Sequence record: NC_135730.1
DNA length: 64,000 nucleotides
Strand: one strand, 5' to 3'
Origin: a phage
The notes under the pieces were generated by a model. That model was given only the letters and a program-made list of their open reading frames with translations, had not been told where the DNA came from and made no database searches. This document shows positions 7,548-41,600 of this stretch, piece after piece. The position numbers and the translations under genes are program-made. How positions within the stretch are numbered: the first letter of the stretch is position 1; each line of letters starts with the position of its first letter.

Positions 7548-8924
7548 ATGCCATATTTAGATAAAGTGGTAGATGTTACAGTTAACCTCGGAACCCAACC
7601 TATTGACACTGTAGGTTTCGAAACTCCCCTGTTCATCGCTATCCACAACAACTTTACTGAGCGAGCTCGCGTATATGCAGAGCTGGATCAGATGGTGGAA
7701 GATGGTTTCGCACAAGGCTCTGCAGCGTATGAGTTTGCAGCAAAAGCTTTTGGTGGTGTATTCCCTCCACAATACGTTATGATCGGCAGACAGGCCAAAG
7801 AAAAGACAACTGTAGATTTTAAAGGTATTGCTGCCGCAGCTGATACCGATGTCGTAATGACTATTGCAAAAGGTAGCTACAATACTTCTTTGATAGTACC
7901 TATCTCTGGTGGAACAGGTGCAACTCAGATTGCAGAGTCAATGAAGACTAAGATCGAAGCAGATGATAACTTGGACGATATCACTGTAGAGGCTGCCGAT
8001 GGTGTTATCACCATCACTGGTGACTGCACTGTTGGTTATCATACTGGTAACTATACAATCAAAAATATCGCCAATGCTGAAAAACCTTCTACAGTAGTTG
8101 ATAAGATCAATGCTGAGCGTGACAATTGGTACTTCCTGTGCCATGAAGACCACACCGACATTGAAGCATGTGCGAAGTGGGCTCAGGCTAACTACAAGCT
8201 GCATGTCTACTCTACTGCAGAAGATGTGACTGGTAAAGATAATAACATCGCCACCAAACTGATGGCTGCACAATATGACAGTGTTGGCATGTACGATCCT
8301 CGTGCTGATAAAGATTTTCCAGAGGGTGGTATCGTAGGCGCTATGGCATCCAACGATCCGTCTTACGGTGACAGCTTGCATTTAAAACAGATGCCTGGTG
8401 TGATTGCACCATCTATGACTTTAACTCAGCGTATGTCGATTTGGGAAAACCACGTTAACTTCTACAGAATGATTAACGGTGTTGGCGCTTTCTGGGAAGG
8501 CAAGTGTGCTTCAGGTCAGTATGCAGACGCTATTCGTTTTGCGCACTGGATCAAGTTCAGATCTGAAGAATCCATGTTTGGGTACATGCATCGTCGCTCT
8601 AATATGGGTTTAAGCATGAAGATGTCTGATGATGATCTTCCGGTTATCAAGTCTGTTCTGATGAACAACCCGATCAATACTGGCATTAAGAATGGCGCGA
8701 TCCTGACAGGTTTTGACGAAGACAACAATGTGTTCTACGACCCGATCATCACAGTTCCTAAACGTGCAGAGATCCCAACCAATCAGTTGGCTGCTCGTGT
8801 TCTGGAAGGTGTGAAAGTAGAACTGGTGTATAATAACGCCCTGCACTTCGTTCGTATCCGGATCAACGTCCTTCTGGACAAAGTTGGTTCTAAATCCACC
8901 AATGCTGTTGCAATGACTGAATAA
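7548..8924 (+). CDS. major tail protein, sheath-like (458 aa)
   Basis: Large ORF followed by a ~157-aa tube-like ORF, chaperones and tape measure, as in contractile-tail gene order; a T5-type long tube protein is not excluded. Confidence 0.4.
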   Translation: MPYLDKVVDVTVNLGTQPIDTVGFETPLFIAIHNNFTERARVYAELDQMVEDGFAQGSAAYEFAAKAFGGVFPPQYVMIGRQAKEKTTVDFKGIAAAADTDVVMTIAKGSYNTSLIVPISGGTGATQIAESMKTKIEADDNLDDITVEAADGVITITGDCTVGYHTGNYTIKNIANAEKPSTVVDKINAERDNWYFLCHEDHTDIEACAKWAQANYKLHVYSTAEDVTGKDNNIATKLMAAQYDSVGMYDPRADKDFPEGGIVGAMASNDPSYGDSLHLKQMPGVIAPSMTLTQRMSIWENHVNFYRMINGVGAFWEGKCASGQYADAIRFAHWIKFRSEESMFGYMHRRSNMGLSMKMSDDDLPVIKSVLMNNPINTGIKNGAILTGFDEDNNVFYDPIITVPKRAEIPTNQLAARVLEGVKVELVYNNALHFVRIRINVLLDKVGSKSTNAVAMTE

Positions 8925-8934
8925 GGAAGACTAG

Positions 8935-9408
8935 ATGGAAACTCAAATTTTAACTCCTTATGCGTATGACCCTAAAAAGGTCAAACTGTACCTGATGCAG
9001 CAGCGTGTCACTGGCTTCGCTGCTGACACCAAGATCGTTGTTTCAAGAAACGAAGACAACATCTACCCTCACGTTGGTGTGGATGGCGAAATGTCTGCGG
9101 CCCTGTCTCGTAACCAATCTGGTGTTATGACTGTATCTTTGCAGAACACTTCTGTATGGAACGCTTACCTTTCTGACTGGCAGAAACAGGCATCGATTAC
9201 TGGTCTGGTATTCTTCCCAGTTCTGCTGGAAGGTAGCCAGGGTCCTGGTATTTCCACAATCGGTTGGATCCAGAAACAGCCTGACCTGACTTACGGAACC
9301 GAAGTAGGTCAACTGGACTGGGATATCGGTATTCTGGATGCATGGCTCAACCGTGATAACATCACTGGTGCTCTTACTGGCCTCGCAGGTCTTGCAGGTA
9401 TTATCTAA
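8935..9408 (+). CDS. putative tail tube protein
   Basis: 157-aa ORF between the sheath-like gene and the tail assembly chaperones; RBS AAGGAAG. Confidence 0.4.
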   Translation: METQILTPYAYDPKKVKLYLMQQRVTGFAADTKIVVSRNEDNIYPHVGVDGEMSAALSRNQSGVMTVSLQNTSVWNAYLSDWQKQASITGLVFFPVLLEGSQGPGISTIGWIQKQPDLTYGTEVGQLDWDIGILDAWLNRDNITGALTGLAGLAGII

Positions 9409-9424
9409 GGGCACACTTTAGCAT

Positions 9425-9451
9425 AAGCCTCACCTTCGGGTGGGGCTTTTT
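9425..9451 (+). terminator. intrinsic terminator (TTCG tetraloop)
   Basis: AAGCCTCACC-ttcg-GGTGGGGCTT then TTTTT. Confidence 0.6.
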
Positions 9452-9498
9452 GCTTTTATGGTTTTGACACACGTTCTTGAATTGCTTGAAAGGTTAAA

Positions 9499-9527
9499 TT
9501 GACAATGCACCGTAATCATGGTAAAAT
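9499..9527 (+). promoter_or_regulatory. sigma70-like promoter with extended -10
   Basis: TTGACA -17- TGgTAAAAT, downstream of terminator 9425-9451. Confidence 0.55.
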
Positions 9528-9570
9528 ACACAAATATGGTGCACAACATGACTAATAAGGATGCTATAAA

Positions 9571-10044
9571 ATGGCTATAAACTTTAGACCTACAACAGAG
9601 ATTGATTTAGCAGGGCACAACTTTGTGATCACCCACTGGGGACCGATGAAAGCAATGAAAAACATGCCTAAAATCGGTAAGATTGTGGCTGTCCCGCTAG
9701 GTGCTATCGGTGGATCTATTATCTCAGGCGGTCAGAACATGGCAGAGGTCCTTCCTACTGCTCTGGCTTACCTGTTCCAAGAACTTGATGATAACTCTAT
9801 TGAAGAGCTATTTAAAATCTTGTTCGAAGATATTACCGTAGATGGTGTGGATAAGCTTAACCCGGATGTTGTGTTTGCGGGGCATCTGCTGGAGATGATT
9901 AAGCTGGCAGGTAAGGTTCTGGAGGTTAACTACGGCTGTTTTTTCACACAAGACGGTTTAGGAAGCCTTCTGGAGATGTTACAGCAGATGGGTATGATTC
10001 AGCAGGTGAACAACCTGGATCAGACTCCGGAAGAGCAGGAATAA
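9571..10044 (+). CDS. tail assembly chaperone (gpG-like)
   Basis: 157-aa acidic C-terminus ORF directly upstream of the tape measure gene; overlapping -1 frame is open through to 10304. Confidence 0.5.
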   Translation: MAINFRPTTEIDLAGHNFVITHWGPMKAMKNMPKIGKIVAVPLGAIGGSIISGGQNMAEVLPTALAYLFQELDDNSIEELFKILFEDITVDGVDKLNPDVVFAGHLLEMIKLAGKVLEVNYGCFFTQDGLGSLLEMLQQMGMIQQVNNLDQTPEEQE

Positions 10045-10304
10045 GCAAGGTTGTTGTGAGGGCCAGTGAGTGGGCAGCCAAGAACAGTTCACTCAACTGG
10101 TTCGACTTTCTTTGGTGCAGGGTGCTCAAGAATTTCAAAGGGGAAAATTTTGAATCGCTAAATCTTGCAGATATGGCGTATTTCCTGAAGCTCTGTGAGT
10201 ATCTTGATATCGAAGAATTCCTAGATACCGTCCAAAACAGGGAAATGGAGCGGGAGCAGAAGGCTGCCGCAGCTGCTGCGAAAGCTAAGCGCAGGAGAGG
10301 ATAA
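9571..10304 (+). CDS. putative -1 frameshift extension of the tail assembly chaperone (gpGT-like fusion)
   Basis: Slippery heptamer T_TTT_TTC at 9939-9945; -1 frame open from 9930 to stop at 10302-10304 with no intervening stop; arrangement analogous to lambda G/GT. Confidence 0.35.
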
Positions 10305-10308
10305 TCTA

Positions 10309-10347
10309 AGGGCCGGATTCCTTTTCTGGGATCTGGCCCTTTTTATT
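10309..10347 (+). terminator. intrinsic terminator before the tape measure gene
   Basis: AGGGCCGGAT ... ATCTGGCCCT hairpin followed by TTTTATT. Confidence 0.45.
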
Positions 10348-10358
10348 ATGAGGAAACC

Positions 10359-12695
10359 ATGGCTACAAACAAAATAGTTGCCACAACAGTCAACAAGATT
10401 GGCTTTGAGATAGAGAACTCCTCCTACAAAAAAGCTGTAGAGAAAATTCGCAGTATTGGGAGGGAGTTCAGGAAACTGGGCGAGGATTTTAACTCAGCCA
10501 ACCCCATGAGTAGATGGCAGGCGGTAGCTGTTAAAACCCAGCAGACAATGCAGAGGGTTGCCAGACAGCAATCTCAGGCAAATGCTAAACTGCACAGAGA
10601 GAGCGTAGCACAGGCCAAGAAAGAGGCTGCAGTAAGGGCTGCAATAGAACGTAGGGAGAATGCGAGACGTAAACAAGCTGTAGGTAATCTTACCGCTAAA
10701 AATCCAGAAATGGCTAGGATGCGTAAGTTCTACCAGCAGCAAGCTAAAGAGGCCAAAAAGGCTGCCAAATCTGCACCAGTGTCTTACGGTGGTTATAAGG
10801 CACCTAAGGCAAGAGTTTTGGCTAATGCCAAATCTTTCAAATATATCCCCGGTAACCCTAATATGGGTGGTGTGGCTTCCGACCCTAACCTTGTGAAAGC
10901 TCAGACAGCCGCTATGAATCGTTATCATAGACAGCTAAGAAGAGACAGTAAAGCTGGTATGGATAATAGGCTTATGTCGGATCGTGAGGCAAGGAGAACC
11001 CACCTCTACAACTCCGCGATAAGACTTTCTGCCAAGTATGGGGCCGGATTCCGTGGAAGCTTGCCAGGATACTCAGAGTTAGAGTCCAGGTTTGCTCGCG
11101 GAGAGATGAAGAAGTCAACCTTTAACGCCCACCTGTCAGCGCTGCAGTCTGGGTTTAAAAGCGCCACCAGCCAAACGCTTACACTAGGCGATGCCATGAG
11201 AGACTTACGTAGATCTGTTATTAATGCAACAGCTGCGTATACAGCTTTTTCTGGATTTGCTGCGGTTAACAGATCTGGTCACATGATGGAGGGGGCAAGT
11301 GCTGCTCTTACTGCTGTTACTGGAGATCCAAACAAAGCCAACAGTGAGGTTGCGTTTGTCCAGCAAGAGGCTATGCGTCTTGGTTTTGATCTCAAATCTG
11401 GTCTTCAAGGTTACGCTCAAATGTCGGTAAACGCCAAAAACCAGATGACAAATCAGGAAGTGCATGAGCTGTTTTCTGCATACTCACAGTATGCTGCTGC
11501 TTATGGTGCCGATGAGGTAAAATACCAGCGCGGTATTATGGCAATCCAACAGATGCTCGGTAAAGGGCAAGTAATGTCTGAAGAACTGAAGCAACAACTT
11601 GCTGAAGCATTGCCTGGTGCATACGAACCTTTTATCAAGGCCACCAAAGAGGCTTTTGGTCTTTCTGAACTCTCCATGGATCAGTTCATGGACATGATGA
11701 AGAAAGGTGAGGTTAAAACAGCCAAGATCATGAAGTATGTGGCTAAGTACATGAACGAGGCATCTGCAGCTGGTTATGAAAGAATGCAGAAGTCTAACGT
11801 GCTGGCAGAAAACAGACTGAAAACCTTCATCGAACTGACTCGTCAGAAACTGTTCACCCGTTGGTCTGACGAACTAACAGAGTTCTATTATACACTAATC
11901 CGCACTGGTGAGACTCTGCAATTTGTGTGGGATGCCTCTGGTGATTTTGTTAGCGGGTTTGTGAGAGGCCTTAACTGGGTAGTTGGTGAACTAAACAACA
12001 CTATAGTCAAGATCCGCATGTTTTTCCTTGAATGGGGGATTAAATGGGGATTCATAACAGCTAAGACGAAGGAATATTCTGAAGAGCTTCATGACACCTT
12101 TAGCTATGCTAAATGGGCAGGGTTTGCTGCTGCCATCATGCTGGTAGTCAACGCCCTAACAAAAGGTTTTGTCATGGCATCCATGCTTGTAAAAACCTTT
12201 AAATTCCTTAACTCTCTAAGGGGTGCAGCTGGAGCAGCGGGTGCCGCTACTACAGAAGGGTCTGGTGGTGGAGCTCCGGCAGGAAAAGGTGGAGGTGGCC
12301 TCAAGACACCTGGTGGCAAAGTTGGTCTGCTCGGTAAGCTGGGCATTATCGGTACAATACTAAGCGCCGGGGAATTATTTAATGACCGTTACAACCCACT
12401 AAGTGAAAGAAATCAGCAGCTGGATACTATCAGCGATATGATTCGCAAAGATATCATATCGGGAGGTAACGGGTTTGTTAATCCTTTGGACACCTTACCT
12501 GGCGGGACTCTTCCGTTGCCAGGTGGCCCTGGTTTTGCTTCTCAATTAAGAACTATGGAAATGCTACCTTTAGAGATCAGTGATGGGAAAATCACGATTT
12601 CAATAGATGAGGGTGAGTTTAACAAAATATTTGATGCAAAACTTGAGTGGGAGAACAATAAAGATATCAACTTCATGTCTACCGACCTTTGGTAA
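10359..12695 (+). CDS. tail tape measure protein
   Basis: 778-aa ORF with helical N-terminal region and Gly-rich segment (GAAGAAGAATTEGSGGGAPAGKGGGG); located after the chaperone pair. Confidence 0.7.
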   Translation: MATNKIVATTVNKIGFEIENSSYKKAVEKIRSIGREFRKLGEDFNSANPMSRWQAVAVKTQQTMQRVARQQSQANAKLHRESVAQAKKEAAVRAAIERRENARRKQAVGNLTAKNPEMARMRKFYQQQAKEAKKAAKSAPVSYGGYKAPKARVLANAKSFKYIPGNPNMGGVASDPNLVKAQTAAMNRYHRQLRRDSKAGMDNRLMSDREARRTHLYNSAIRLSAKYGAGFRGSLPGYSELESRFARGEMKKSTFNAHLSALQSGFKSATSQTLTLGDAMRDLRRSVINATAAYTAFSGFAAVNRSGHMMEGASAALTAVTGDPNKANSEVAFVQQEAMRLGFDLKSGLQGYAQMSVNAKNQMTNQEVHELFSAYSQYAAAYGADEVKYQRGIMAIQQMLGKGQVMSEELKQQLAEALPGAYEPFIKATKEAFGLSELSMDQFMDMMKKGEVKTAKIMKYVAKYMNEASAAGYERMQKSNVLAENRLKTFIELTRQKLFTRWSDELTEFYYTLIRTGETLQFVWDASGDFVSGFVRGLNWVVGELNNTIVKIRMFFLEWGIKWGFITAKTKEYSEELHDTFSYAKWAGFAAAIMLVVNALTKGFVMASMLVKTFKFLNSLRGAAGAAGAATTEGSGGGAPAGKGGGGLKTPGGKVGLLGKLGIIGTILSAGELFNDRYNPLSERNQQLDTISDMIRKDIISGGNGFVNPLDTLPGGTLPLPGGPGFASQLRTMEMLPLEISDGKITISIDEGEFNKIFDAKLEWENNKDINFMSTDLW

Positions 12696-17167: not shown

Positions 17168-19765
17168 ATGCGTATTCAACATAACATTGATAACGTATTT
17201 CAGATGATTGAGGGGCACAGGAAGTGCCTCGATAACAACACAGGTATTACCAACACCCCTACACAAAATAAGCTAGTAAACCCTGATGGTCTTATAGCTG
17301 CAGGGTGGGCAGGTAATAAGATAAATAATGATTGGGCAATGCATGAGTCCCAAGCTGTGTTGATTCTGGGATACATTGAAGCATACAGAGCATCGAAAAG
17401 CGATTTCTATCTGGATAGGGCAAAAGATGCTTGGGAAGCTTACAATAGTCATCTTCTGGGTGCATATGCAGTAGAAAGTAAAATGCAAAGATTGTCCCAC
17501 TACCCTCTATCCACAGATGGGGTTCCATCACATGGTGGGTTTAAAGATGTGGTGGTGTCTTTTACCAATGGTAGAGGAAAAATCCCAGCTGGATCTCCGA
17601 CATGGGGGGAATACCTGGACAAGGCATTCCAAGCGTATAACGGCGTGTTAGGAAGAAACACTGTAGACTCTGATGTTTACGGCGGCACAGATGCTAACCC
17701 AGATTGGACAACATCCGGATTAAGTTGGTGGGTTGAGTGGTATATAGCATGGGATGGTAATCGCTATTGGGCTAACGGTAGTATAGCTGATAGTGGTCAT
17801 ACGTCTGTAGAGTTTGGCACAATCCAATTACAAGATAAGGGTGTTACAGGCAACCACAAAGTGACCTATTGTGTAAGATTACCTCAAGAGCAGGGTGGAT
17901 CGGTGATACCTGCAGGATCCCCTGTAATTGTAAATCCCATAAACGTGGTTGCAGATAATCAGGCCCCAGAGTTGGACGGGGAAGAAATGTGGTGTGACGC
18001 TTGTTATCAACTCTACACCTTGACAGGTGAGGAAAAGTATTACACCGCGTTTGAACAGTCTTACAACAAGTTGCTTAATTTCAGTGATATAAACGCCTAC
18101 GACAAACTGTTTAGGAAGACCACGTTGATTAAGGCACCGTTTACAGATGGTACTTGTCTTGTTGCAGGAACAGTTCCTGTCATGAGCAGGGACAGTGACG
18201 GATATATCAATTTTAGAATGAACGCACGCCAGCCTTGCGAAATAATTCAAAAAGGGACTACATACAAAATAGGCAGAGATGCTGAAATTGTTATGAATTT
18301 CGGAGGAGAAGGGGTTCTGTTCCAGCCACATTTCATCATTAATGATGGCAACAATAACAAAAAACAGTACAGGATAGGTGTTCCTTTTGGAGGGGCAGAG
18401 GTAACAGAAATAGTTGCCAAGGTTACCGATTTCGTAGAGGTGGTTGGTAAAGACGGTAATCCATATCTCTTACCTAAAGAGGAAAACATTGTCGTAAGTG
18501 GTGGCGCTAGTGTTAGTATGCAGTATGATACCGACATTTACAACCACTCTGACAACTTCACCCGTTGTAATATAGCAAGAGGTAAAGTAACTTTCAATTT
18601 TGGAAGAGAGATTTCTTTAAACTCAGTAACTTATCGATCAGATGATGAGATGGTAAGGGTCAAATTTCTTGACAAAGACAGGTGGTTATGGTATGCTGAT
18701 CTATATGCCACTAATGGACAATGGATAACAGAAACTCTTACTCTAGGAGATTTCAAACTAGATCCGACACAACCTCATCACACTGAAGAAGAGATTAAAC
18801 CTTTCTTTGCTAATCCTAAGGGGCTCACCTCTGTAGATTTCAGCCTAAGCGACAGGCAGATAGGTAATGGCTTGTTTGATCTATATTGCGTCAACACGCT
18901 GCCGCAATTCTATATTGCAGATAGGGATGCTTATCTAATCTGGTTTAGCGTATGGATGGCAAGCAAGACAGAATCAACCGCTAAGGTTGGCGATTGCTAT
19001 GTCAGAAACTACAAGCAAGGTGCATACAGGCACACACCAGGTGTGTTCCCTGCCGGAAAGGTGATAGATAAGGAAAACTATCTCTTAGAGGAAAGGCCAA
19101 ATTGGCCCTACCCAGGCATGCAATACCCGGCAGTCTACTGCATGGGTGCAGAAAACATAGATCGCCATAGATTGTCAAATACAATAGGCTTTCTGTATGA
19201 CGCTCAAGTCTGGTATAATAATACATTTAAGACAGAGGGTCCAGTTGCCTCACGTTATGTATGGCAAAGAGGTAATGAAGGGTTGACTGGTTGGTGGGAG
19301 ATGGTAGATAACTCCAAGCTCCAGTCAAGATCTTTTGTTGCTGCGTGCCGCACAATCTATGAGCTCAAGAAACATAAAGAACCTGTTGATGAAAGATTAT
19401 TCCTGTTCTGCCAGAAATGGGCATGGTTCCTCAACAGATTCCAGTCATCTCATTCAGGAAATCTGCCTACAGACTTTAACACCTCTGGGGGATATTCTTA
19501 TCAAGACAGAGGGGACAGGATGTGGGTGGTAGGTGAATGGCTTGCAGGTTGCTGCTGGCTAGGTCTGTGCGGGTATTCAGAGACAATACCTCAAATAGAT
19601 ATTGTTGTAGAAGCCTGTATGAAGCTACTGCAAAAGCACCACTTCATCAATGGTGATAATGTTTTAAACGGCTGCTGGGCAGTTTCTGACCCGGTGGGCT
19701 ATCACTCTGGCGAAATCCTTCGCGGTCTGGGCCTCTATGCTCAATACCGTGGATTGTACCTTTAA
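17168..19765 (+). CDS. tail-associated protein with (alpha/alpha)6 glycosidase-like domain
   Basis: 865-aa ORF in the tail operon; segments such as ESQAVLILGYIEAYRASKSDFYLDRAKDAWEAY resemble six-hairpin glycosidase folds. Confidence 0.35.
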   Translation: MRIQHNIDNVFQMIEGHRKCLDNNTGITNTPTQNKLVNPDGLIAAGWAGNKINNDWAMHESQAVLILGYIEAYRASKSDFYLDRAKDAWEAYNSHLLGAYAVESKMQRLSHYPLSTDGVPSHGGFKDVVVSFTNGRGKIPAGSPTWGEYLDKAFQAYNGVLGRNTVDSDVYGGTDANPDWTTSGLSWWVEWYIAWDGNRYWANGSIADSGHTSVEFGTIQLQDKGVTGNHKVTYCVRLPQEQGGSVIPAGSPVIVNPINVVADNQAPELDGEEMWCDACYQLYTLTGEEKYYTAFEQSYNKLLNFSDINAYDKLFRKTTLIKAPFTDGTCLVAGTVPVMSRDSDGYINFRMNARQPCEIIQKGTTYKIGRDAEIVMNFGGEGVLFQPHFIINDGNNNKKQYRIGVPFGGAEVTEIVAKVTDFVEVVGKDGNPYLLPKEENIVVSGGASVSMQYDTDIYNHSDNFTRCNIARGKVTFNFGREISLNSVTYRSDDEMVRVKFLDKDRWLWYADLYATNGQWITETLTLGDFKLDPTQPHHTEEEIKPFFANPKGLTSVDFSLSDRQIGNGLFDLYCVNTLPQFYIADRDAYLIWFSVWMASKTESTAKVGDCYVRNYKQGAYRHTPGVFPAGKVIDKENYLLEERPNWPYPGMQYPAVYCMGAENIDRHRLSNTIGFLYDAQVWYNNTFKTEGPVASRYVWQRGNEGLTGWWEMVDNSKLQSRSFVAACRTIYELKKHKEPVDERLFLFCQKWAWFLNRFQSSHSGNLPTDFNTSGGYSYQDRGDRMWVVGEWLAGCCWLGLCGYSETIPQIDIVVEACMKLLQKHHFINGDNVLNGCWAVSDPVGYHSGEILRGLGLYAQYRGLYL

Positions 19766-19800: not shown

Positions 19801-22800
19801 ATGGCTGATATTAAAGTTGTCAGAATTGAATCTCTTCCTGCCACTACCGCAGTGACAGAGGATGATTACCTGGTTGTTCAACAACCAGACCTGACCCGTC
19901 GTGTAAAAATTGGCGATGTTGTCCATGTTGATGGGACTGTTTCTCATGTAATCTCCTTTAAGGAAGGTGGTAAGTTAAACGGCCCAATGGATTTTGCCTA
20001 CTTCGAAGAGGAAGACCTCTACCTGCGTTGGAAAGGCGAATTTCCGCACACTGTTCCTGCATTGTCTTCACCGTACTCCGATGGTGGGATTACTGACGCT
20101 GCATGGACGGTATATACAGACCCGTCCTTAAGGGAGGAGCTGGAATCTACCATTGGCGCATCTATGATCATGACAGCCGAAGGGCAGTCTGTCCAGGATG
20201 TAATGGATGTTACTGTTCAGACAGCTAACGATGCCAAAGCACTTGCACAGCGTGTAGATTTTGGTACAGTGCACACTGTAGGCGATGTTATTCACCTTGA
20301 TAACTTTGTTGGCCCTGCAGTTATTGAAGAGGGAAGAACTACCAACTACCCTTCTGCAGCAGCTGGTGAAAAATTTCTGAACGGTGTGGTATCTCGTCGT
20401 GATACTACAACTGTTGATGGTATTTTCCGTGGCGCTACCACCGGAGCCATGTACACCATTGCAGTAACCAACGGTGTAGCAACAACGAAAAGAATAGCAC
20501 TTCGTGATGAATTTAAACGCCTGGAGGCAAACAACCCAACAAGAACAGTTATCCGTGCTGGAGATGATTTAAACACGGCAGGGTACTTGCAGCTTGACGC
20601 AACAGGCCGTTGGGGTATGTGGAACCAACAAACAGCCTCGTGGCAACCTCTTGCTATAGAGCAAGGAGGCACAGGGGCTAGAGATGCCGCTGGAGTCCGT
20701 ATCAATATCGGTGCTTTCTATAAGCAACGTGCAGCCCTTGAGCCAAATTTCAATATCAATAACTTGACTGGTAATCAGGATGGTGTATACTACCAGCCGA
20801 TGACTGCTTATGCAACTGAGGCAAATGGTTACCCTGCAGGTTCTGGTGCTGGTCACCTGATTGTTTGGCAGAACAATGCTAACGGCGGTACAGGTTGTCG
20901 TCAGGAATACTATCCATTCTCTAACGTAGATGTTTGGTATTTAAGAACCTATCAGGCCAACACAAATCAGTGGACTGCATGGCAGCCGATGGTCAGACCT
21001 CGTAACGATGATACCTTTAGAGCGCACATCGGTCTCGGGTCTAGAAACTCCCCTACCTTTGGGCACCTTTACCTGTCTCAAAGTTCTGCTGATGTTAAGT
21101 CAGCATCAGGTATTGTTAACGGGGACAAATACAGCGCTGACGGTGTCCTTGAGCATGGATATAGGATCTACTCTGAGGTAAGAAACGACAATAAGGCTTG
21201 GTTGACAATCCACCTGCACAAAGGTGCAAAAGGATCTGAAACTCATAGATATTTAGGTTTCCGCGAAGATGGCGTGTTAGACTGCCCTAAATACATGCAG
21301 GTTGGGGATCTTACTGGTCAGCTGACAAACTGGGGTCTTGGAGAATGGATCCGTAGTTCAGGGGCAGAAAGAGGCTTCTGGGGGTCCAAGAAAGCCGCCA
21401 AGATGGTTGTCTGGGATGGTGGGATGGACGAATCCGGTAACGGCACTCTGGAATGGGGTGTTTATAACAACCGGAAGGCCAAGTGGGAACCTTTACCTCA
21501 AGCCGCAGGTGGTACTGGGGCTACAACTTTAGCAGATGCTCAGAATCTGTTCAAAGTTCCTATAGCAGCAGGTGTGAAAGACTTCTTAACACTGCCAAGA
21601 ACCGCAGGGATGGAAGATGGGAAATACTACCCGATCATCGTTAGAACAGATCCGTACTATGCTCCAGCAACTGGTACTGATATTACCATAGTTACCAGAT
21701 CGTCATCTGGAAATGACCCTATGAACTGTGCTACCTTACAGTGTCACTATAGAACTGGTGGTTGGACAGACAGAGGAGACTCTTTCTACGGGGTAGTAAA
21801 TTTCTACCAGAATGAAAAAGCACTTCTTGGGATGGTTGCTCCAACAAGGGGTAAACAAGAGTATGTTGCTTTCTATGTAGAGGCTCGTGCTTTCCCTGTC
21901 AGCATATACGCAAGTAGAAATGTTATCGAAGTGTTTACCAGAGAGCAAGATTACCAGGTCGGCTCTGTAACAAACAATCAGGATGGGGTTAAGTTCGTTG
22001 CACCTCTCCAGTCAGCAGATTTGAATCTTGCTATTCTTGGAGATAACAACACCAATACCAGACCTATTGTTGACTTCAAAGGTACTTCAGGGTTCTACAC
22101 TGGCGGCGGCACACAGTGGCACTATATAGGCACTGCTGAACGCTATGCTGTGATGAGCAAAATGAATATGCCAAAAGTCGAGCTATGGGCAGACGGTCTT
22201 GACTATTTGTGCTACGGCAGTCCTAGAAAGGCGTTATTCTCTAATGCAGGATTCCAGTGTGCATCCGATGGGACAGAGGATCTGACTAACGGTACGTTTA
22301 CCTCTAAATGCGGTAATGGTGCTGGTCTCAAAGGTCAGGCAGAGTTCAGATCTACTCCGGAAGCGGGTCAAGTTATTGTTCGCGATGTTGTAGGCACAGC
22401 TCATAGATTCTACAACTTCAACAAGGATGGTACTTTCTCAGCTCCTGGTGGTTTTGTATGCCATACTGGTGCAGACTGGAACAACCAGTTTGGGCCTAAC
22501 AACCCATCCAAAATAATGGCAGGCAATGTCAACGGACCTGAAGGATCGATGGTTGTTGGTGGGTTGTCTGTAGCGTTTTCTGGAAACTATGCCTTCCAAA
22601 TGGCTGGTCGCCTTGATCAGTTATACACCAGATCTATCGAGGGTGGTAACCATAGGGCATGGAACAAGGTTATACAGCACAGAGGACAGGGTCTTGGGAC
22701 AAACGACCTTAACGACTACAAAGGAGATAGGGAGGGTTTTTATCATCAGGAGACCAATGCTCAAGCCGCACTTGATAAAAACTACCCATGCTCCCAGGCA

Positions 22801-38668: not shown

Positions 38669-41600
38669 ATGCTTCCAATCCCTTTGCTAAAACTTGGTCG
38701 TCATTTCCTCGATAAGAGGGGTGGAATTAAGGAACTTGCTGTTCTGTCATACCCAATAGACAACAGTGATGGTACAAGCAACACAGTATCCTATGTAAAT
38801 AGCTTAGCTATACTTTTTGATGATGGTCAGCTTAATATTACTGGCTATAATAGGTTCGGGGAGTGTCGGACTGGAGATCTTGATACAATAAACTATCCTA
38901 ATGAGGCAGCTTGGAACGTAGACCATGTTTGGAGAGCTGACCGTGCATTTGTAATCCGCACATTCGATAATAAATTTTTCTATATTGGTTGCACAGCTGG
39001 TCTTATCGGATCGGAGGCAGCAGGTGGAAACGATGTTTGTGTCAGAGAGTGGACACCTTTGCCGGAACAGATCGTAACAGGGTTGCATTTGGACACCCAT
39101 CCTGAGAGACTTGTTGAAGTAATGGGTGGCGTAAACAATACAGTGTGGGTAATTGCTGCACCAGAGGCTGATGGTATGCTTCACCTGTACGGCTCTGGCA
39201 ATAATACTTACGGCTCTCTTCATGTTGACAAAAATCAGCATGCAACCCCTGTAAAGATTGGTGAGACATCGGAAAATCCTGAAACAGGTCCTTGGAAAAA
39301 CCCAAGCATCAACTGCGAGGTGCATGACAACTCTGTTATTTTCGGTGGTCCTAGAGGTTTCTGGATTGCTGGATACGACTTTCTGAGAAATAACAGTAGA
39401 AACGACCTTGTTTGGCCTCCTGTGCAGATTACTCGTAACGATTTGAGGGGCATTCCTGCAGATGAGGAGTGGAAAGGGTTTATGTGCGGTCCTAACGGGG
39501 CAATAATTGCCACACAGAGGATGCATAGACCCGATGACCAGCAGCTTGTTAACGTATTTTATGGTCAAAACATTTGGGGAGATGATACATGGCGGGAACT
39601 GAATATCACCTACACCCATGAGGTAATAATGGCTCGTGGGTACGGCACAAGTGGCATTTTCTTCAATAATGGCACCAAGCAGTATCGTGGATTCTCTCGC
39701 AACTTGTGTAATGATATTGGTGCACAATCTGCAAACAATAGTCCTAGGTCCGATTTTATCCACTATCAAGCTCTTGCTACAGCTAAATATGTTGAGCAAC
39801 GCCTGCCAGTTAGCTGGACAGAGAGTGTTTATTTCCAAGGCATCCATAGAGAAGGTTTCTTAGGGACCTTTACTGTTGTTAATGGTAAACTTTGGTGGTC
39901 AGGCATCCCAAGGGGAAGTTTTGCAGGCTCTAACAACCTGTTTGGAGGCAGACTTAATAGCCAGGGGTTCACAGAGGTTCCTGAGAATTGGTATAAAAAT
40001 GTCCCGGTAGACAGTTGGGGTGTTGAGGATATTTTCGACGTTAACGGTGTTAGCAGCGTTAGCAATATTTACATTGGTGACACGGTCAAGATGAAGTTGA
40101 AGCCTCAGCCAGAGGGGGCTACGTTCATTATTGACAAGATTGAACTGGTAAATGCTGCAGGTACGGTTGTTACAGATGCAAATTACCAATTCTCCACCAA
40201 CTGGAACCACGGCGGGGCCAACGAAGTTGTTGTTACCCAGTATAACAGAAATGTTAACAGACGTGGCCTGTACTCTGTAAAAATAACCTATCATGACAAG
40301 CATGGCACAGGCAGAACCCATACGACAAGGACTTTGAACTGGAACACCATAGTTCCTGCGTATCCGTCCAACGGCAAGTGGCATACTGTCGGTAGAAACA
40401 AACAGTTCCATGTCAACGATACTGTATACTTCGGGCTTAACGCAGCTCAACCTGCTGTAGAAGGCGATACATCGTATATAGTACGACTCCATAGAATGGA
40501 TGCCGGGTCTGTAACCTACGATGTGACTCAGGAGATCTACGATCAGAGACGTACCACGTATGACAATGTTGTGAAAACACAAGCCTTGTGGGAGTTCAAC
40601 CCTAACGGCAGAGGCGGTAAAATGTTGCAGGTCAACGAGCAAAACGGGACATCGTTGACTGTCCATGAACATCCAGATCCTTGGCCTGATCCTGGAAAAC
40701 CTAACTCTGGTGCTCGTACACTGAAAATTGTTAGCCATGATGCAGGATATTTCGGAATACGCTGGGAAGCCACAGTAAGATATGCCGACGGGACAACAAA
40801 CAACATAGGGATCACCCTTGGTGGCACTAGTGAGGATAACTCCCTGAAAATTGCCTACACCCCTAGGGGCATCTCTATTGACAACATAGATGTTGTTCGC
40901 AACGGTTACGGCGATGTGAATGTCAAAGTTACTCTTGGCGAACATCTTGGTGGGGAAAGGATCATCATGTATGCCTTTGATCATGATCCGCGCACCAATG
41001 GGACTTATGCAAATCAGGCATGGAGTTATCTGATAAATGCACCTGAGCCGAATACTAAAGAGTTCTACTACGGTATGAAGCGAGATGTGTGCAAGAAAAC
41101 AGGAACACATGATTGGATTGCTATCTGCGTTAAAGATGAGCGCACAGCTTGGGATGAGCCTGTTAACAGATGGTTCATAGGTATTCCTACCAGAAGTGAT
41201 AAGTATGTCGCAGAATATATTGTATGCATGGGCGGTACCAACCTAAACATGTGTTGGAACGAAGATGTAAACAAATACTCTGATTATGACTATATGAGGG
41301 ATTACTCTTGTAATTTGTGGTTTAACCAAACTACAGGTTACCCTCCGCGTCAGGTAAGGGTAAATCCTGCAATCTTTACAGATACGCAGGTTTTCTTGAC
41401 AAAACAGGCCAACGAGGTCCGGACCTTCAAGAACAAATACGACCCTAATAAGTGGTTCTATAACTGCTATGGGGCATTTTTCTGGGGACCTGGAGAATTA
41501 CCTGGTGGTGGCTCTTGTTTTGAGGCTGCAACTTACGCCAGTGACAGATTTATGGGCCAGGTCAAGAAATACAAGATAATTCCAGGGCCTGAAACTTTAG

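What the first reader, a model, noticed from the sequence alone, without database searches (positions are those of the whole stretch)
9927..10304. Candidate programmed -1 ribosomal frameshift in the tail assembly chaperone
The -1 frame opens at 9930, immediately after its TAA at 9927-9929, and stays open to 10304. A slippery heptamer T_TTT_TTC lies at 9939-9945 in the zero frame of the chaperone ORF. The predicted fusion (about 244 aa) mirrors the conserved G/GT arrangement upstream of tape measure genes.
Basis: partly seen in the sequence, partly recalled or inferred. Interest (0 to 1): 0.5.

Follow-up and report, generated by a model that had tools for sequence, protein, structure and literature searches.

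The report
Unannotated frameshift in tail chaperone gene
This rV5-like E. coli phage almost certainly makes a second, longer tail assembly chaperone by a programmed -1 ribosomal slip at TTTTTTC, the usual trick of long-tailed phages, but the slip was not annotated in any of the roughly 25 public records I opened.

Summary
T_TTT_TTC sits at 9939-9945 in the zero frame of the 157-aa tail assembly chaperone gene (9571-10044). The -1 frame is open from 9930 to 10304. A slip would give a 244-aa fusion.

The window alone is weak evidence: the -1 frame stays open by chance with P about 0.24. The comparative evidence is strong:
- About 20 diverged lineages (chaperone identity down to about 28%) keep the same heptamer at the same codon phase, with a stop-free -1 frame into a conserved C-terminal domain.
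- All three synonymous sites of the heptamer are invariant, while flanking codons vary.
- One lineage (Rheinheimera Barbavirus) has the lambda heptamer G_GGA_AAG instead, a few codons downstream.
- The downstream ORF has no conserved start codon. Its GTG is already lost in an 89%-identical relative.
- Conservation in the -1 frame continues upstream of every candidate start.

A strong Shine-Dalgarno-like GGAGG lies 13 nt upstream, as in dnaX. I found no downstream RNA structure.

This is a new member of the known G/GT class and is closest in mechanism to P2 E/E+E'. It was unannotated in every record opened. The value is a correction to the annotation; conceptual novelty is low.

The parts
9571..10044 (+). 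Zero-frame tail assembly chaperone gene (G-like, 157 aa)
   Evidence: PF21822 Phage_TAC_15 2.3e-23, phrog_3840 5.4e-69. The AF2 core, residues 1-123, matches predicted viral 'tail assembly chaperone' and 'tape measure chaperone' structures.
9921..9926 (+). Shine-Dalgarno-like GGAGGT, 13 nt (from GGAGG) upstream of the heptamer; candidate 5' stimulator
   Evidence: Duplex with the anti-SD is -10.5 kcal/mol, stronger than every background window scanned in the ~290 nt upstream, within the gene. GGAGG or GAGGTG sits at the same spot in most lineages (34 of 48 unique sequences at or below -6 kcal/mol) but is absent in Certrevirus, the Klebsiella K54 group and Aeromonas phages. The spacing lies within the 6-17 nt range used by Sharma et al. 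2014.
9939..9945 (+). Slippery heptamer T_TTT_TTC (P site TTT, A site TTC)
   Evidence: Invariant in all relatives with FF at this position. Codon identity is 1.0 here against 0.418 upstream. H_HH.U_UU.Y is among the most efficient heptamer classes in E. coli (PMC4066793).
9946..10044 (+). Dual-coding overlap: the zero frame encodes the G-only 32-aa tail, the -1 frame encodes a Gly/Ser/Asp/Pro-rich linker
   Evidence: The AF2 model of the -1 product has pLDDT below 50 for residues 1-36. G residues 124-157 have pLDDT below 50. GGT (Gly129) is invariant at its synonymous site, which is the first base of the -1 frame Phe codon in the conserved RFR motif.
9945..10304 (+). -1 frame extension (119 aa plus stop); with 9571-9945 it gives the 244-aa GT-like fusion
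   Evidence: tblastn alignments to relatives of 50-60% identity begin at residue 1, directly after the heptamer.
10041..10301 (+). Conserved T-like C-terminal domain (ISKVV...KNSSLNWFDFLW...EYLDIEEF... then a basic tail), phrog_10409
   Evidence: Conservation starts at ISKVV, upstream of GTG 10056 and across the zero-frame stop. Predicted helical, but with low confidence.
10056..10058 (+). GTG that gene callers use as the start of an 82-aa 'hypothetical protein'; not conserved
   Evidence: Absent in L055/L056 (chaperone 89% identical), where the first start lies 59 residues into the -1 part. Starts differ widely between lineages and often lie inside the domain. The SD is weak to moderate, -4.7 kcal/mol.
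9499..9527 (+). Sigma-70-like promoter (TTGACA-17-TAAAAT with TG) ahead of the chaperone gene
   Evidence: annotated as promoter P51 in rV5 DQ832317.
10308..10341 (+). Terminator-like hairpin directly after the -1 frame stop, before the tape measure gene
   Evidence: annotated as a rho-independent terminator in rV5.
10359..12695 (+). Tape measure protein gene (context)
   Evidence: phrog_5255 E=0; PF20155 TMP_3.
8935..9408 (+). Tail tube gene (context)
   Evidence: PF11681 and phrog_280. rV5 gp52 was identified as the tube protein by virion MS.

Best explanation
The window comes from an rV5-like Vequintavirus, a myophage of E. coli. Between the tube and tape measure genes it carries a G/GT-type chaperone pair.

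Most ribosomes translate 9571-10044 and make the 157-aa chaperone. A minority slip back one base when tRNA-Phe occupies both the P site (UUU) and the A site (UUC) on U_UUU_UUC (9939-9945). They re-pair on UUU_UUU and continue in the -1 frame from CAC (9945) to TAA (10302-10304). The product is a 244-aa fusion: the chaperone core (residues 1-125), a flexible linker of about 32 aa, and a helical T-like domain of about 85 aa with a basic tail. The GGAGG 13 nt upstream probably pairs with the 16S rRNA 3' end and raises slip frequency, as in dnaX. No downstream structure is involved.

By analogy with lambda G/GT and P2 E/E+E', both forms coat the tape measure protein. The rare T-like domain recruits tube subunits, and neither form stays in the virion.

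Shown here: the gene identity, the sequence anatomy and its evolutionary conservation. Inferred: that the slip occurs, its frequency, the role of the SD-like element, and the function of the T-like domain.
For: Anatomy. Chaperone identity and synteny.

Conservation without annotation bias:
- 13 lineages sampled from a tblastn ranking (Vequinta-, Seuna-, Avuna-, Henuna- and Certrevirus, a Klebsiella K54 group, Stephanstirmvirinae, Plateaulakevirus, Barbavirus) all have an in-phase heptamer and an open -1 frame of 93-128 codons. Twelve have T_TTT_TTC and Barba5A has G_GGA_AAG.
- 5 further lineages from ENA/Logan and 4 more phages show the same. So do 33 IMG/VR loci, although these were retrieved with an FF-containing pattern, so they test only codon choice.

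The codon before the heptamer is TGT, CCT, AGT or TCT. That is three different amino acids, always ending in T. Codon identity among pairs below 75% amino-acid identity is 1.0 at the heptamer against 0.418 upstream.

Stop-free overlap given the amino-acid sequence has P of 0.002-0.7 per lineage. The summed log10 is -16 over 19 lineages, which are not fully independent.

There is no conserved start for the downstream ORF, and conservation extends upstream of all starts. Gene callers often call nothing there.

U_UU.U_UU.C belongs to the efficient class in E. coli, and U_UU.C outranks U_UU.U as a tetramer, which fits the invariant C. The SD-like element. P2 uses TTTTTTG without a downstream structure. 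Neither product appears in the rV5 virion MS data, as expected for chaperones.
Against: There is no direct protein, ribosome-profiling or reporter evidence for any phage of this group. I found no paper or database record that reports it.

The heptamer lies in the most conserved peptide of the chaperone (VLEVNYGCFF), so part of its conservation comes from the protein. The window alone is not statistically significant.

The SD-like element is missing in several lineages, and it overlaps the conserved Leu-Glu-Val codons. No downstream stimulator was found.

GTG 10056 has a usable weak SD (-4.7 kcal/mol), so some independent initiation in this particular phage is not excluded.
Confidence: 0.8

Rival explanations
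1. Transcriptional slippage instead of ribosomal slippage. RNA polymerase adds one extra U on the T6 tract, so a fraction of mRNAs carry U7. These encode the identical 244-aa fusion (...CFFHTRR...) in a single frame.
For: The site is a homopolymer run, and the predicted protein would be the same as in the ribosomal model. Sharma et al. attribute the under-representation of U7 and A7 runs in E. coli genes partly to transcriptional slippage.
Against: - The run is only 6 nt and is capped by an invariant C. A longer run would slip better.
- From my own knowledge, efficient bacterial slippage needs runs of about 7-9 or more.
- The run is always in the X_XXY_YYZ phase, never TTT TTT.
- Barba5A replaces it with G_GGA_AAG, which is not a homopolymer.
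- An anti-SD-binding element sits at the spacing that acts on ribosomes.
Confidence: 0.1
2. There is no recoding. The downstream ORF is a separate small gene translated from GTG 10056 (82 aa), as most records annotate it, and the overlap with the -1 frame is incidental.
For: GTG 10056 has an AAGG 5 nt upstream (-4.7 kcal/mol). An 82-aa protein cluster exists in databases (P0074). The overlap is stop-free by chance with P about 0.24 in this window.
Against: - The GTG is lost in the 89%-identical relative L055/L056, where the first possible start lies deep inside the conserved domain.
- Starts in other lineages fall at residues 29-84 of the -1 part, mostly inside the domain.
- The conserved ISKVV and the RFR motif lie upstream of any start.
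- The invariance of the heptamer's synonymous sites would be unexplained.
Confidence: 0.07
3. The downstream region is a non-functional remnant and the heptamer is a by-product of the conserved Cys/Pro-Phe-Phe motif. No second product matters.
For: FF is nearly invariant in the protein. The T-like part has no Pfam family and only a low-confidence model.
Against: The T-like domain is conserved at the protein level, with tblastn hits from Vequintavirinae to Stephanstirmvirinae and a Pseudomonas phage down to about 28% identity; the Aeromonas and Rheinheimera phages were placed by aligning the -1 products. It forms its own PHROG, 1.9e-51. The third base of the codon before FF is always T across four different codons.
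Confidence: 0.03

Closest known systems
Phage P2 E / E+E' (-1 frameshift at TTTTTTG; Christie et al. 2002, as summarised in PMC3091744)
   Same: It is a contractile-tailed phage. The chaperone pair lies next to the tape measure gene. The slip occurs on a T6-based heptamer. No downstream RNA structure is present. The long form shares its N-terminus with the short form.
   Different: The last base is C rather than G. The proteins are larger (157/244 aa against 91/142 aa). No match to a P2 GpE family appeared in the Pfam scan. An SD-like element lies upstream here.
Phage lambda G / GT (G_GGA_AAG; Levin 1993; Xu, Hendrix and Duda 2004, 2013, 2014)
   Same: The gene order is major tail/tube gene, G, T, tape measure gene. 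The T frame is -1. The products are expected to be absent from virions, and there is presumably a low-ratio long form. One relative, Barba5A, uses the lambda heptamer itself.
   Different: This is a myophage, not a siphophage. The heptamer differs. The slip site is 32 codons before the G stop, so G has a private C-terminal tail. The Pfam family is different (Phage_TAC_15).
Proposed TAC-N/TAC-NC -1 frameshift with a GTTTTT motif in Vandenendeviridae (Pakpunavirus) and Andersonviridae (PMC12846349, 2025; Moogle annotation)
   Same: The tail module is related: the tube matches the KPP10/PhiTE tube family. The downstream 'hypothetical protein' is likewise unannotated as part of the chaperone. The site is poly-T near the end of TAC-N. 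The argument from an uninterrupted -1 frame is the same. The Moogle 'tape measure chaperone' (212 aa) matches our model.
   Different: That paper notes relatedness to Vequintavirinae, but in the passages I read it shows the site only for the other two groups. Here the motif is a full T_TTT_TTC heptamer, and the supporting evidence includes synonymous-site analysis, the pattern of start codons and a heptamer swap.
E. coli dnaX -1 frameshift (A_AAA_AAG with an upstream SD-like element and a downstream hairpin)
   Same: A heptamer plus an SD-like element within the stimulatory spacing upstream.
   Different: There is no downstream hairpin. The slip lengthens the product rather than truncating it. 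The stimulator is not conserved in all lineages.

Membership tests
G/GT-type tail assembly chaperone frameshift (Xu, Hendrix and Duda 2004) | Two ORFs located between the major tail (tube) gene and the tape measure gene | tested here: met
   Order is tube 8935-9408, TAC 9571-10044, small ORF to 10304, TMP 10359-12695.
G/GT-type tail assembly chaperone frameshift (Xu, Hendrix and Duda 2004) | The second ORF overlaps the first and lies in the -1 frame | tested here: met
   The overlap is 115 nt and the -1 frame is open 9930-10304. The +1 frame is closed.
G/GT-type tail assembly chaperone frameshift (Xu, Hendrix and Duda 2004) | A canonical X_XXY_YYZ slippery heptamer in the zero frame inside the overlap | tested here: met
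   T_TTT_TTC at 9939-9945 is the only such heptamer in the overlap. It belongs to the efficient class in E. coli.
G/GT-type tail assembly chaperone frameshift (Xu, Hendrix and Duda 2004) | The arrangement is conserved in relatives despite sequence divergence | tested here: met
   About 20 lineages down to about 28% identity. Heptamer codon identity is 1.0 against 0.418 upstream. A swap to G_GGA_AAG occurs in Barba5A.
G/GT-type tail assembly chaperone frameshift (Xu, Hendrix and Duda 2004) | The downstream ORF lacks its own conserved initiation signal | tested here: met
   Start positions are not conserved and mostly lie inside the domain. The GTG is lost in the 89%-identical relative.
G/GT-type tail assembly chaperone frameshift (Xu, Hendrix and Duda 2004) | The fusion protein is actually made at a low, fixed ratio and is needed for tail assembly | not testable with these tools
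   No proteomics of infected cells, ribosome profiling or genetics was found.
G/GT-type tail assembly chaperone frameshift (Xu, Hendrix and Duda 2004) | The products are absent from mature virions | tested here: met
   No peptides of either frame appear in the rV5 virion MS table. Tube, sheath and TMP were detected. The phi92 structure paper lists gp131 and gp134 but not the two genes between them. This is evidence from absence only.
Pfam PF21822 Phage_TAC_15 | Score above the curated gathering threshold | tested here: met
   83.6 bits against a cut-off of 22; residues 15-129.
dnaX-like SD-stimulated -1 frameshift | An SD-like sequence 6-17 nt upstream of the heptamer | tested here: met
   GGAGG at 9921-9925 with a 13-nt spacer, -10.5 kcal/mol, stronger than all background windows scanned in the gene.
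dnaX-like SD-stimulated -1 frameshift | The stimulator is conserved across relatives | tested here: inconclusive
   34 of 48 unique sequences are at or below -6 kcal/mol. It is absent in Certrevirus, the Klebsiella K54 group and Aeromonas phages, and it overlaps the conserved L-E-V codons.
dnaX-like SD-stimulated -1 frameshift | A downstream stimulatory hairpin or pseudoknot 5-9 nt after the heptamer | tested here: not met
   z = -0.01 for the first 50 nt and -1.3 for 100 nt. No consensus structure appears in 12 relatives, and there is no Rfam match.
Transcriptional slippage sites | A long homopolymer run (typically 7-9 or more), independent of reading phase | tested here: not met
   The run is exactly T6, capped by an invariant C and always in one phase. 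Barba5A has no homopolymer. The length threshold comes from my own knowledge.
P2 GpE / E+E' protein family | Sequence match to the P2 GpE family | tested here: not met
   The Pfam scan at E<=0.01 returned only Phage_TAC_15. The resemblance to P2 is mechanistic, not by homology.

The most novel reading that the evidence does not exclude
The site may be a dnaX-style frameshift driven by a 5' SD-like element, which is unusual for phage chaperone sites. The stimulator is present in some genera and absent in others, which would tune the short:long chaperone ratio by lineage. In addition, the 32-codon overlap may be truly dual-coding, with a functional G-only C-terminal tail in one frame and the GT linker in the other.
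Probability: 0.35. Interest if true: 0.4.

Novelty: new member of a known kind. Interest (0 to 1): 0.25.

Why it matters
The T-like domain matched 358 phage records. Every record I opened, about 25, labels this ORF a 'hypothetical protein', truncates it or omits it, and none annotates slippage. These records include rV5-like, PVP-SE1-like, phi92/phAPEC8-like and Certrevirus phages, groups studied for biocontrol and therapy. Recognising the frameshift corrects those annotations and assigns a role to phrog_10409. It extends the G/GT rule to two large myophage subfamilies, and it gives a clean, synonymously mutable site (TGT TTT TTC to TGC TTC TTC) for testing tail assembly in these phages. It does not change the concepts of the field.

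Tried and rejected
- **Downstream structure.** RNAfold of 50 and 100 nt after the heptamer gave z = -0.01 and -1.3. RNAalifold on 12 relatives predicted no pairs. Rfam gave no match. Rejected.
- **Natural in-frame G-T fusions.** Two searches of 5.8 billion proteins found only 149-159-aa chaperones and three 80-82-aa T fragments. This gives no support, but also no contradiction.
- **AF2 of the -1 product.** Mean pLDDT was 51, so it was used only for a rough secondary-structure picture and not for fold search.
- **Foldseek of the chaperone model against the PDB.** The best hit was E = 0.32 to an uncharacterised Vibrio PLE protein, which is uninformative. The PDB sequence searches were empty.
- **rV5 virion MS supplement.** No peptides from either frame. 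This is expected for chaperones and therefore not decisive.
- **Literature.** I found no report of this frameshift for rV5-like phages.
- **Other slip sites or a +1 shift.** The overlap holds no other heptamer and the +1 frame is closed.

Full report
**1. What the window is**

The region 9400-10400 is 99.7% identical to rV5-like coliphages such as EdH4 and rV5_ev147, and 99.1% identical to rV5 itself. 117 records cover at least 80% of it at 95% identity or more. These are Vequintavirus myophages.

The local gene order, all on the + strand, is:
- sheath, 7548-8924 (phrog_205)
- tube, 8935-9408 (PF11681)
- a 157-aa ORF, 9571-10044
- an 82-aa ORF, 10056-10304
- tape measure protein, 10359-12695 (PF20155, phrog_5255)

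The 157-aa protein is a tail assembly chaperone. PF21822 Phage_TAC_15 scores 83.6 bits against a cut-off of 22, and phrog_3840 gives 5e-69. The small ORF matches phrog_10409, which has no assigned function.

**2. The observation**

The zero-frame codons are TGT TTT TTC (Cys123 Phe124 Phe125), so 9939-9945 reads T_TTT_TTC in X_XXY_YYZ phase. The -1 frame has TAA at 9927-9929 and is then open to TAA at 10302-10304. A slip gives 125 + 119 = 244 aa with the junction ...NYGCFF/HTRRFRK.... The +1 frame is closed.

In the window alone the case is suggestive but not significant:
- TTTTTTC is depleted, with 9 copies against 17.7 expected. The only other + strand copy is out of phase.
- After the 54 in-phase slippery heptamers found in ORFs of at least 90 aa, the median -1 open length is 9 codons. 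Here it is 119.
- Resampling synonymous codons of the 32 overlapping zero-frame codons leaves the -1 frame stop-free 24% of the time.

**3. Comparative evidence**

I sampled relatives evenly down a tblastn ranking of the chaperone and fetched 13 lineages. They were Vequintavirus, Seunavirus PVP-SE1, a Klebsiella K54 phage, Avunavirus 18-1-2, Henunavirus pEa_SNUABM_55, Certrevirus PBES02 and F5M2A, W70, Stephanstirmvirinae phAPEC8, Eryne and phi1_175008, Aeromonas phiA009 and Rheinheimera Barba5A. Chaperone identity to the window ranges from 53% to 28%.

- Every lineage has an in-phase heptamer inside a -1 overlap, followed by 93-128 stop-free codons. Twelve have T_TTT_TTC.
- Barba5A has lost FF (HYGCLTSGK) and carries the lambda heptamer G_GGA_AAG a few codons downstream. 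So slipperiness is retained while the sequence that provides it changes.
- Five more lineages found by whole-protein homology in ENA/Logan assemblies show the same. So do four more phages, including a Pseudomonas phage.
- 33 IMG/VR loci all read TTTTTTC. They were retrieved with a pattern that contains FF, so they test codon choice only.

**4. Selection at the nucleotide level**

The codon before FF is TGT, CCT, AGT or TCT. That is three different amino acids and four codons, always ending in T. FF is always TTT TTC.

I compared pairs of sequences below 75% amino-acid identity and counted how often a shared amino acid uses the same codon:

| Region | Identical-codon fraction |
|---|---|
| Upstream of the site | 0.418 |
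| The three heptamer codons | 1.0 |
| Gly129 (GGT) | 1.0 |

The third base of Gly129 is the first base of the -1 frame Phe codon in the conserved RFR motif.

The invariant final C fits the E. coli hierarchy U_UU.C > U_UU.U and the avoidance of U7 runs. H_HH.U_UU.Y heptamers are among the most efficient in E. coli (PMC4066793).

**5. The downstream ORF is not a stand-alone gene**

The -1 frame products align from the residue after the heptamer: (H/R/Q)xRRFR, then a variable Gly/Ser/Asp/Pro-rich linker, then the conserved ISKVVxRAxxYAxKNSSLxWFDYLW...EYLDIEEF domain and a basic tail. tblastn alignments to relatives of 50-60% identity start at residue 1.

- Conservation begins at ISKVV (10041). 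That is upstream of GTG 10056 and spans the zero-frame stop.
- Candidate start codons fall at residues 29 to 84 of the -1 part, depending on the lineage, and mostly lie inside the domain.
- In L055/L056, whose chaperone is 89% identical to the window's, the GTG is replaced (VVL for VVV). The first start there lies 59 residues in, and no gene was called.
- Public annotations give 43-88-aa fragments or nothing at all.
- The rV5 record annotates ORF50 from a CTG that overlaps the heptamer.
- No record I opened annotates slippage.

**6. Stimulators**

I found no downstream structure. The first 50 nt fold with z = -0.01 and the first 100 nt with z = -1.3. RNAalifold predicts no consensus pairs, and Rfam has no match. 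P2 also lacks a downstream structure.

Upstream, GGAGG at 9921-9925 lies 13 nt before the heptamer. It binds the anti-SD at -10.5 kcal/mol, more strongly than any background window scanned in the ~290 nt upstream within the gene. GGAGG or GAGGTG occupies the same position in Vequintavirus, Avunavirus, Stephanstirmvirinae and several metagenomic lineages. It is weaker (GGAGA) in Seunavirus and Henunavirus, and absent in Certrevirus, the Klebsiella K54 group and the Aeromonas phages. The spacing lies within the 6-17 nt range used by Sharma et al.. I treat this element as a plausible, lineage-variable stimulator; that is an inference.

**7. Protein architecture**

The AF2 model of the chaperone (25-sequence alignment, pTM 0.62) is mostly confident for residues 1-123, apart from a low-confidence loop at 49-59, and has pLDDT below 50 from residue 124 onward. 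So the slip site sits at the end of the confidently modelled core.

The model matches predicted viral proteins named tail assembly chaperone or tape measure chaperone. These include the 212-aa Moogle protein and the Barbavirus chaperone.

The -1 part models poorly (pLDDT 51). It looks like a disordered stretch of about 32 residues followed by four helices.

Neither product appears in the rV5 virion MS data, while the tube, sheath and tape measure proteins do. The phi92 virion structure paper likewise does not list the two genes between the tube gene (gp131) and the tape measure gene (gp134).

**8. Mechanism and rivals**

The best explanation is a programmed -1 ribosomal frameshift that yields a GT-like fusion (confidence 0.8).

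- **Transcriptional slippage** would give the same protein. It is disfavoured by the short capped run, the fixed phase, the Barbavirus heptamer swap and the ribosome-directed SD-like element (0.1).
- **Independent initiation at GTG 10056** is possible in this phage, since the SD is -4.7 kcal/mol. It cannot explain the conservation pattern (0.07).
- **A non-functional remnant** is very unlikely (0.03).

**9. Relation to what is known**

This is the G/GT arrangement of Xu, Hendrix and Duda 2004. The closest mechanism is P2 E/E+E', which slips on TTTTTTG.

A 2025 paper proposes the same recoding, with a GTTTTT motif, for the related Vandenendeviridae and Andersonviridae. It notes their kinship with Vequintavirinae, but in the passages I read it does not show the site for them.

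I found no paper linking rV5-, PVP-SE1- or phi92-like phages with frameshifting.

My verdict is a new member of a known kind. The finding is real and well supported, useful for annotation, and of low conceptual novelty.

Noticed in passing
window 9425-9448, 9499-9527, 10308-10341: The chaperone pair appears to be its own transcription unit. A terminator-like hairpin follows the tube gene, then a near-consensus sigma-70 promoter (TTGACA-17-TAAAAT with TG), and a second terminator-like hairpin comes right after the -1 frame stop, before the tape measure gene. rV5 annotates the same promoter and terminator.
   Followed up: partly
GenBank MG0656xx records matching window 9400-10400: 18-23 unannotated records named 'Campylobacter phage' with host C. 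jejuni match this region; those listed are at least 98% identical to this rV5-like coliphage region. The host assignment looks doubtful.
   Followed up: no
L001 (rV5 DQ832317) 2037-2405, equivalent to window 9936-10304: The original rV5 annotation starts ORF50 at a CTG codon that overlaps the slippery heptamer, giving a 122-aa overlapping CDS rather than a frameshift product.
   Followed up: yes
L053/L054 1-1144 (human gut metagenome relatives, chaperone about 74% identical): A large DUF723-containing gene (512-621 aa) sits immediately upstream of the chaperone gene, where the tube gene lies in the window. It may be an inserted homing-endonuclease-like gene.
   Followed up: no
L014 (Rheinheimera phage Barba5A) 1820-2458: A reverse-strand 'putative DNA binding protein' gene is inserted between the T-like ORF and the tape measure gene, breaking the usual adjacency.
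   Followed up: no
window 18247-18537, 20346-20705, 39235-39513 (minus strand): In-phase slippery heptamers followed by long -1 open frames also appear in minus-strand ORFs. I suspect these are shadow ORFs of plus-strand genes, but I did not check them.
   Followed up: no
window 9946-10041, zero frame: The G-only C-terminal tail of 32 aa (TQDGLGSLLEMLQQMGMIQQVNNLDQTPEEQE) keeps a G-F/L...L...G...V..D pattern across genera. This suggests it has a function that the long form lacks.
   Followed up: partly
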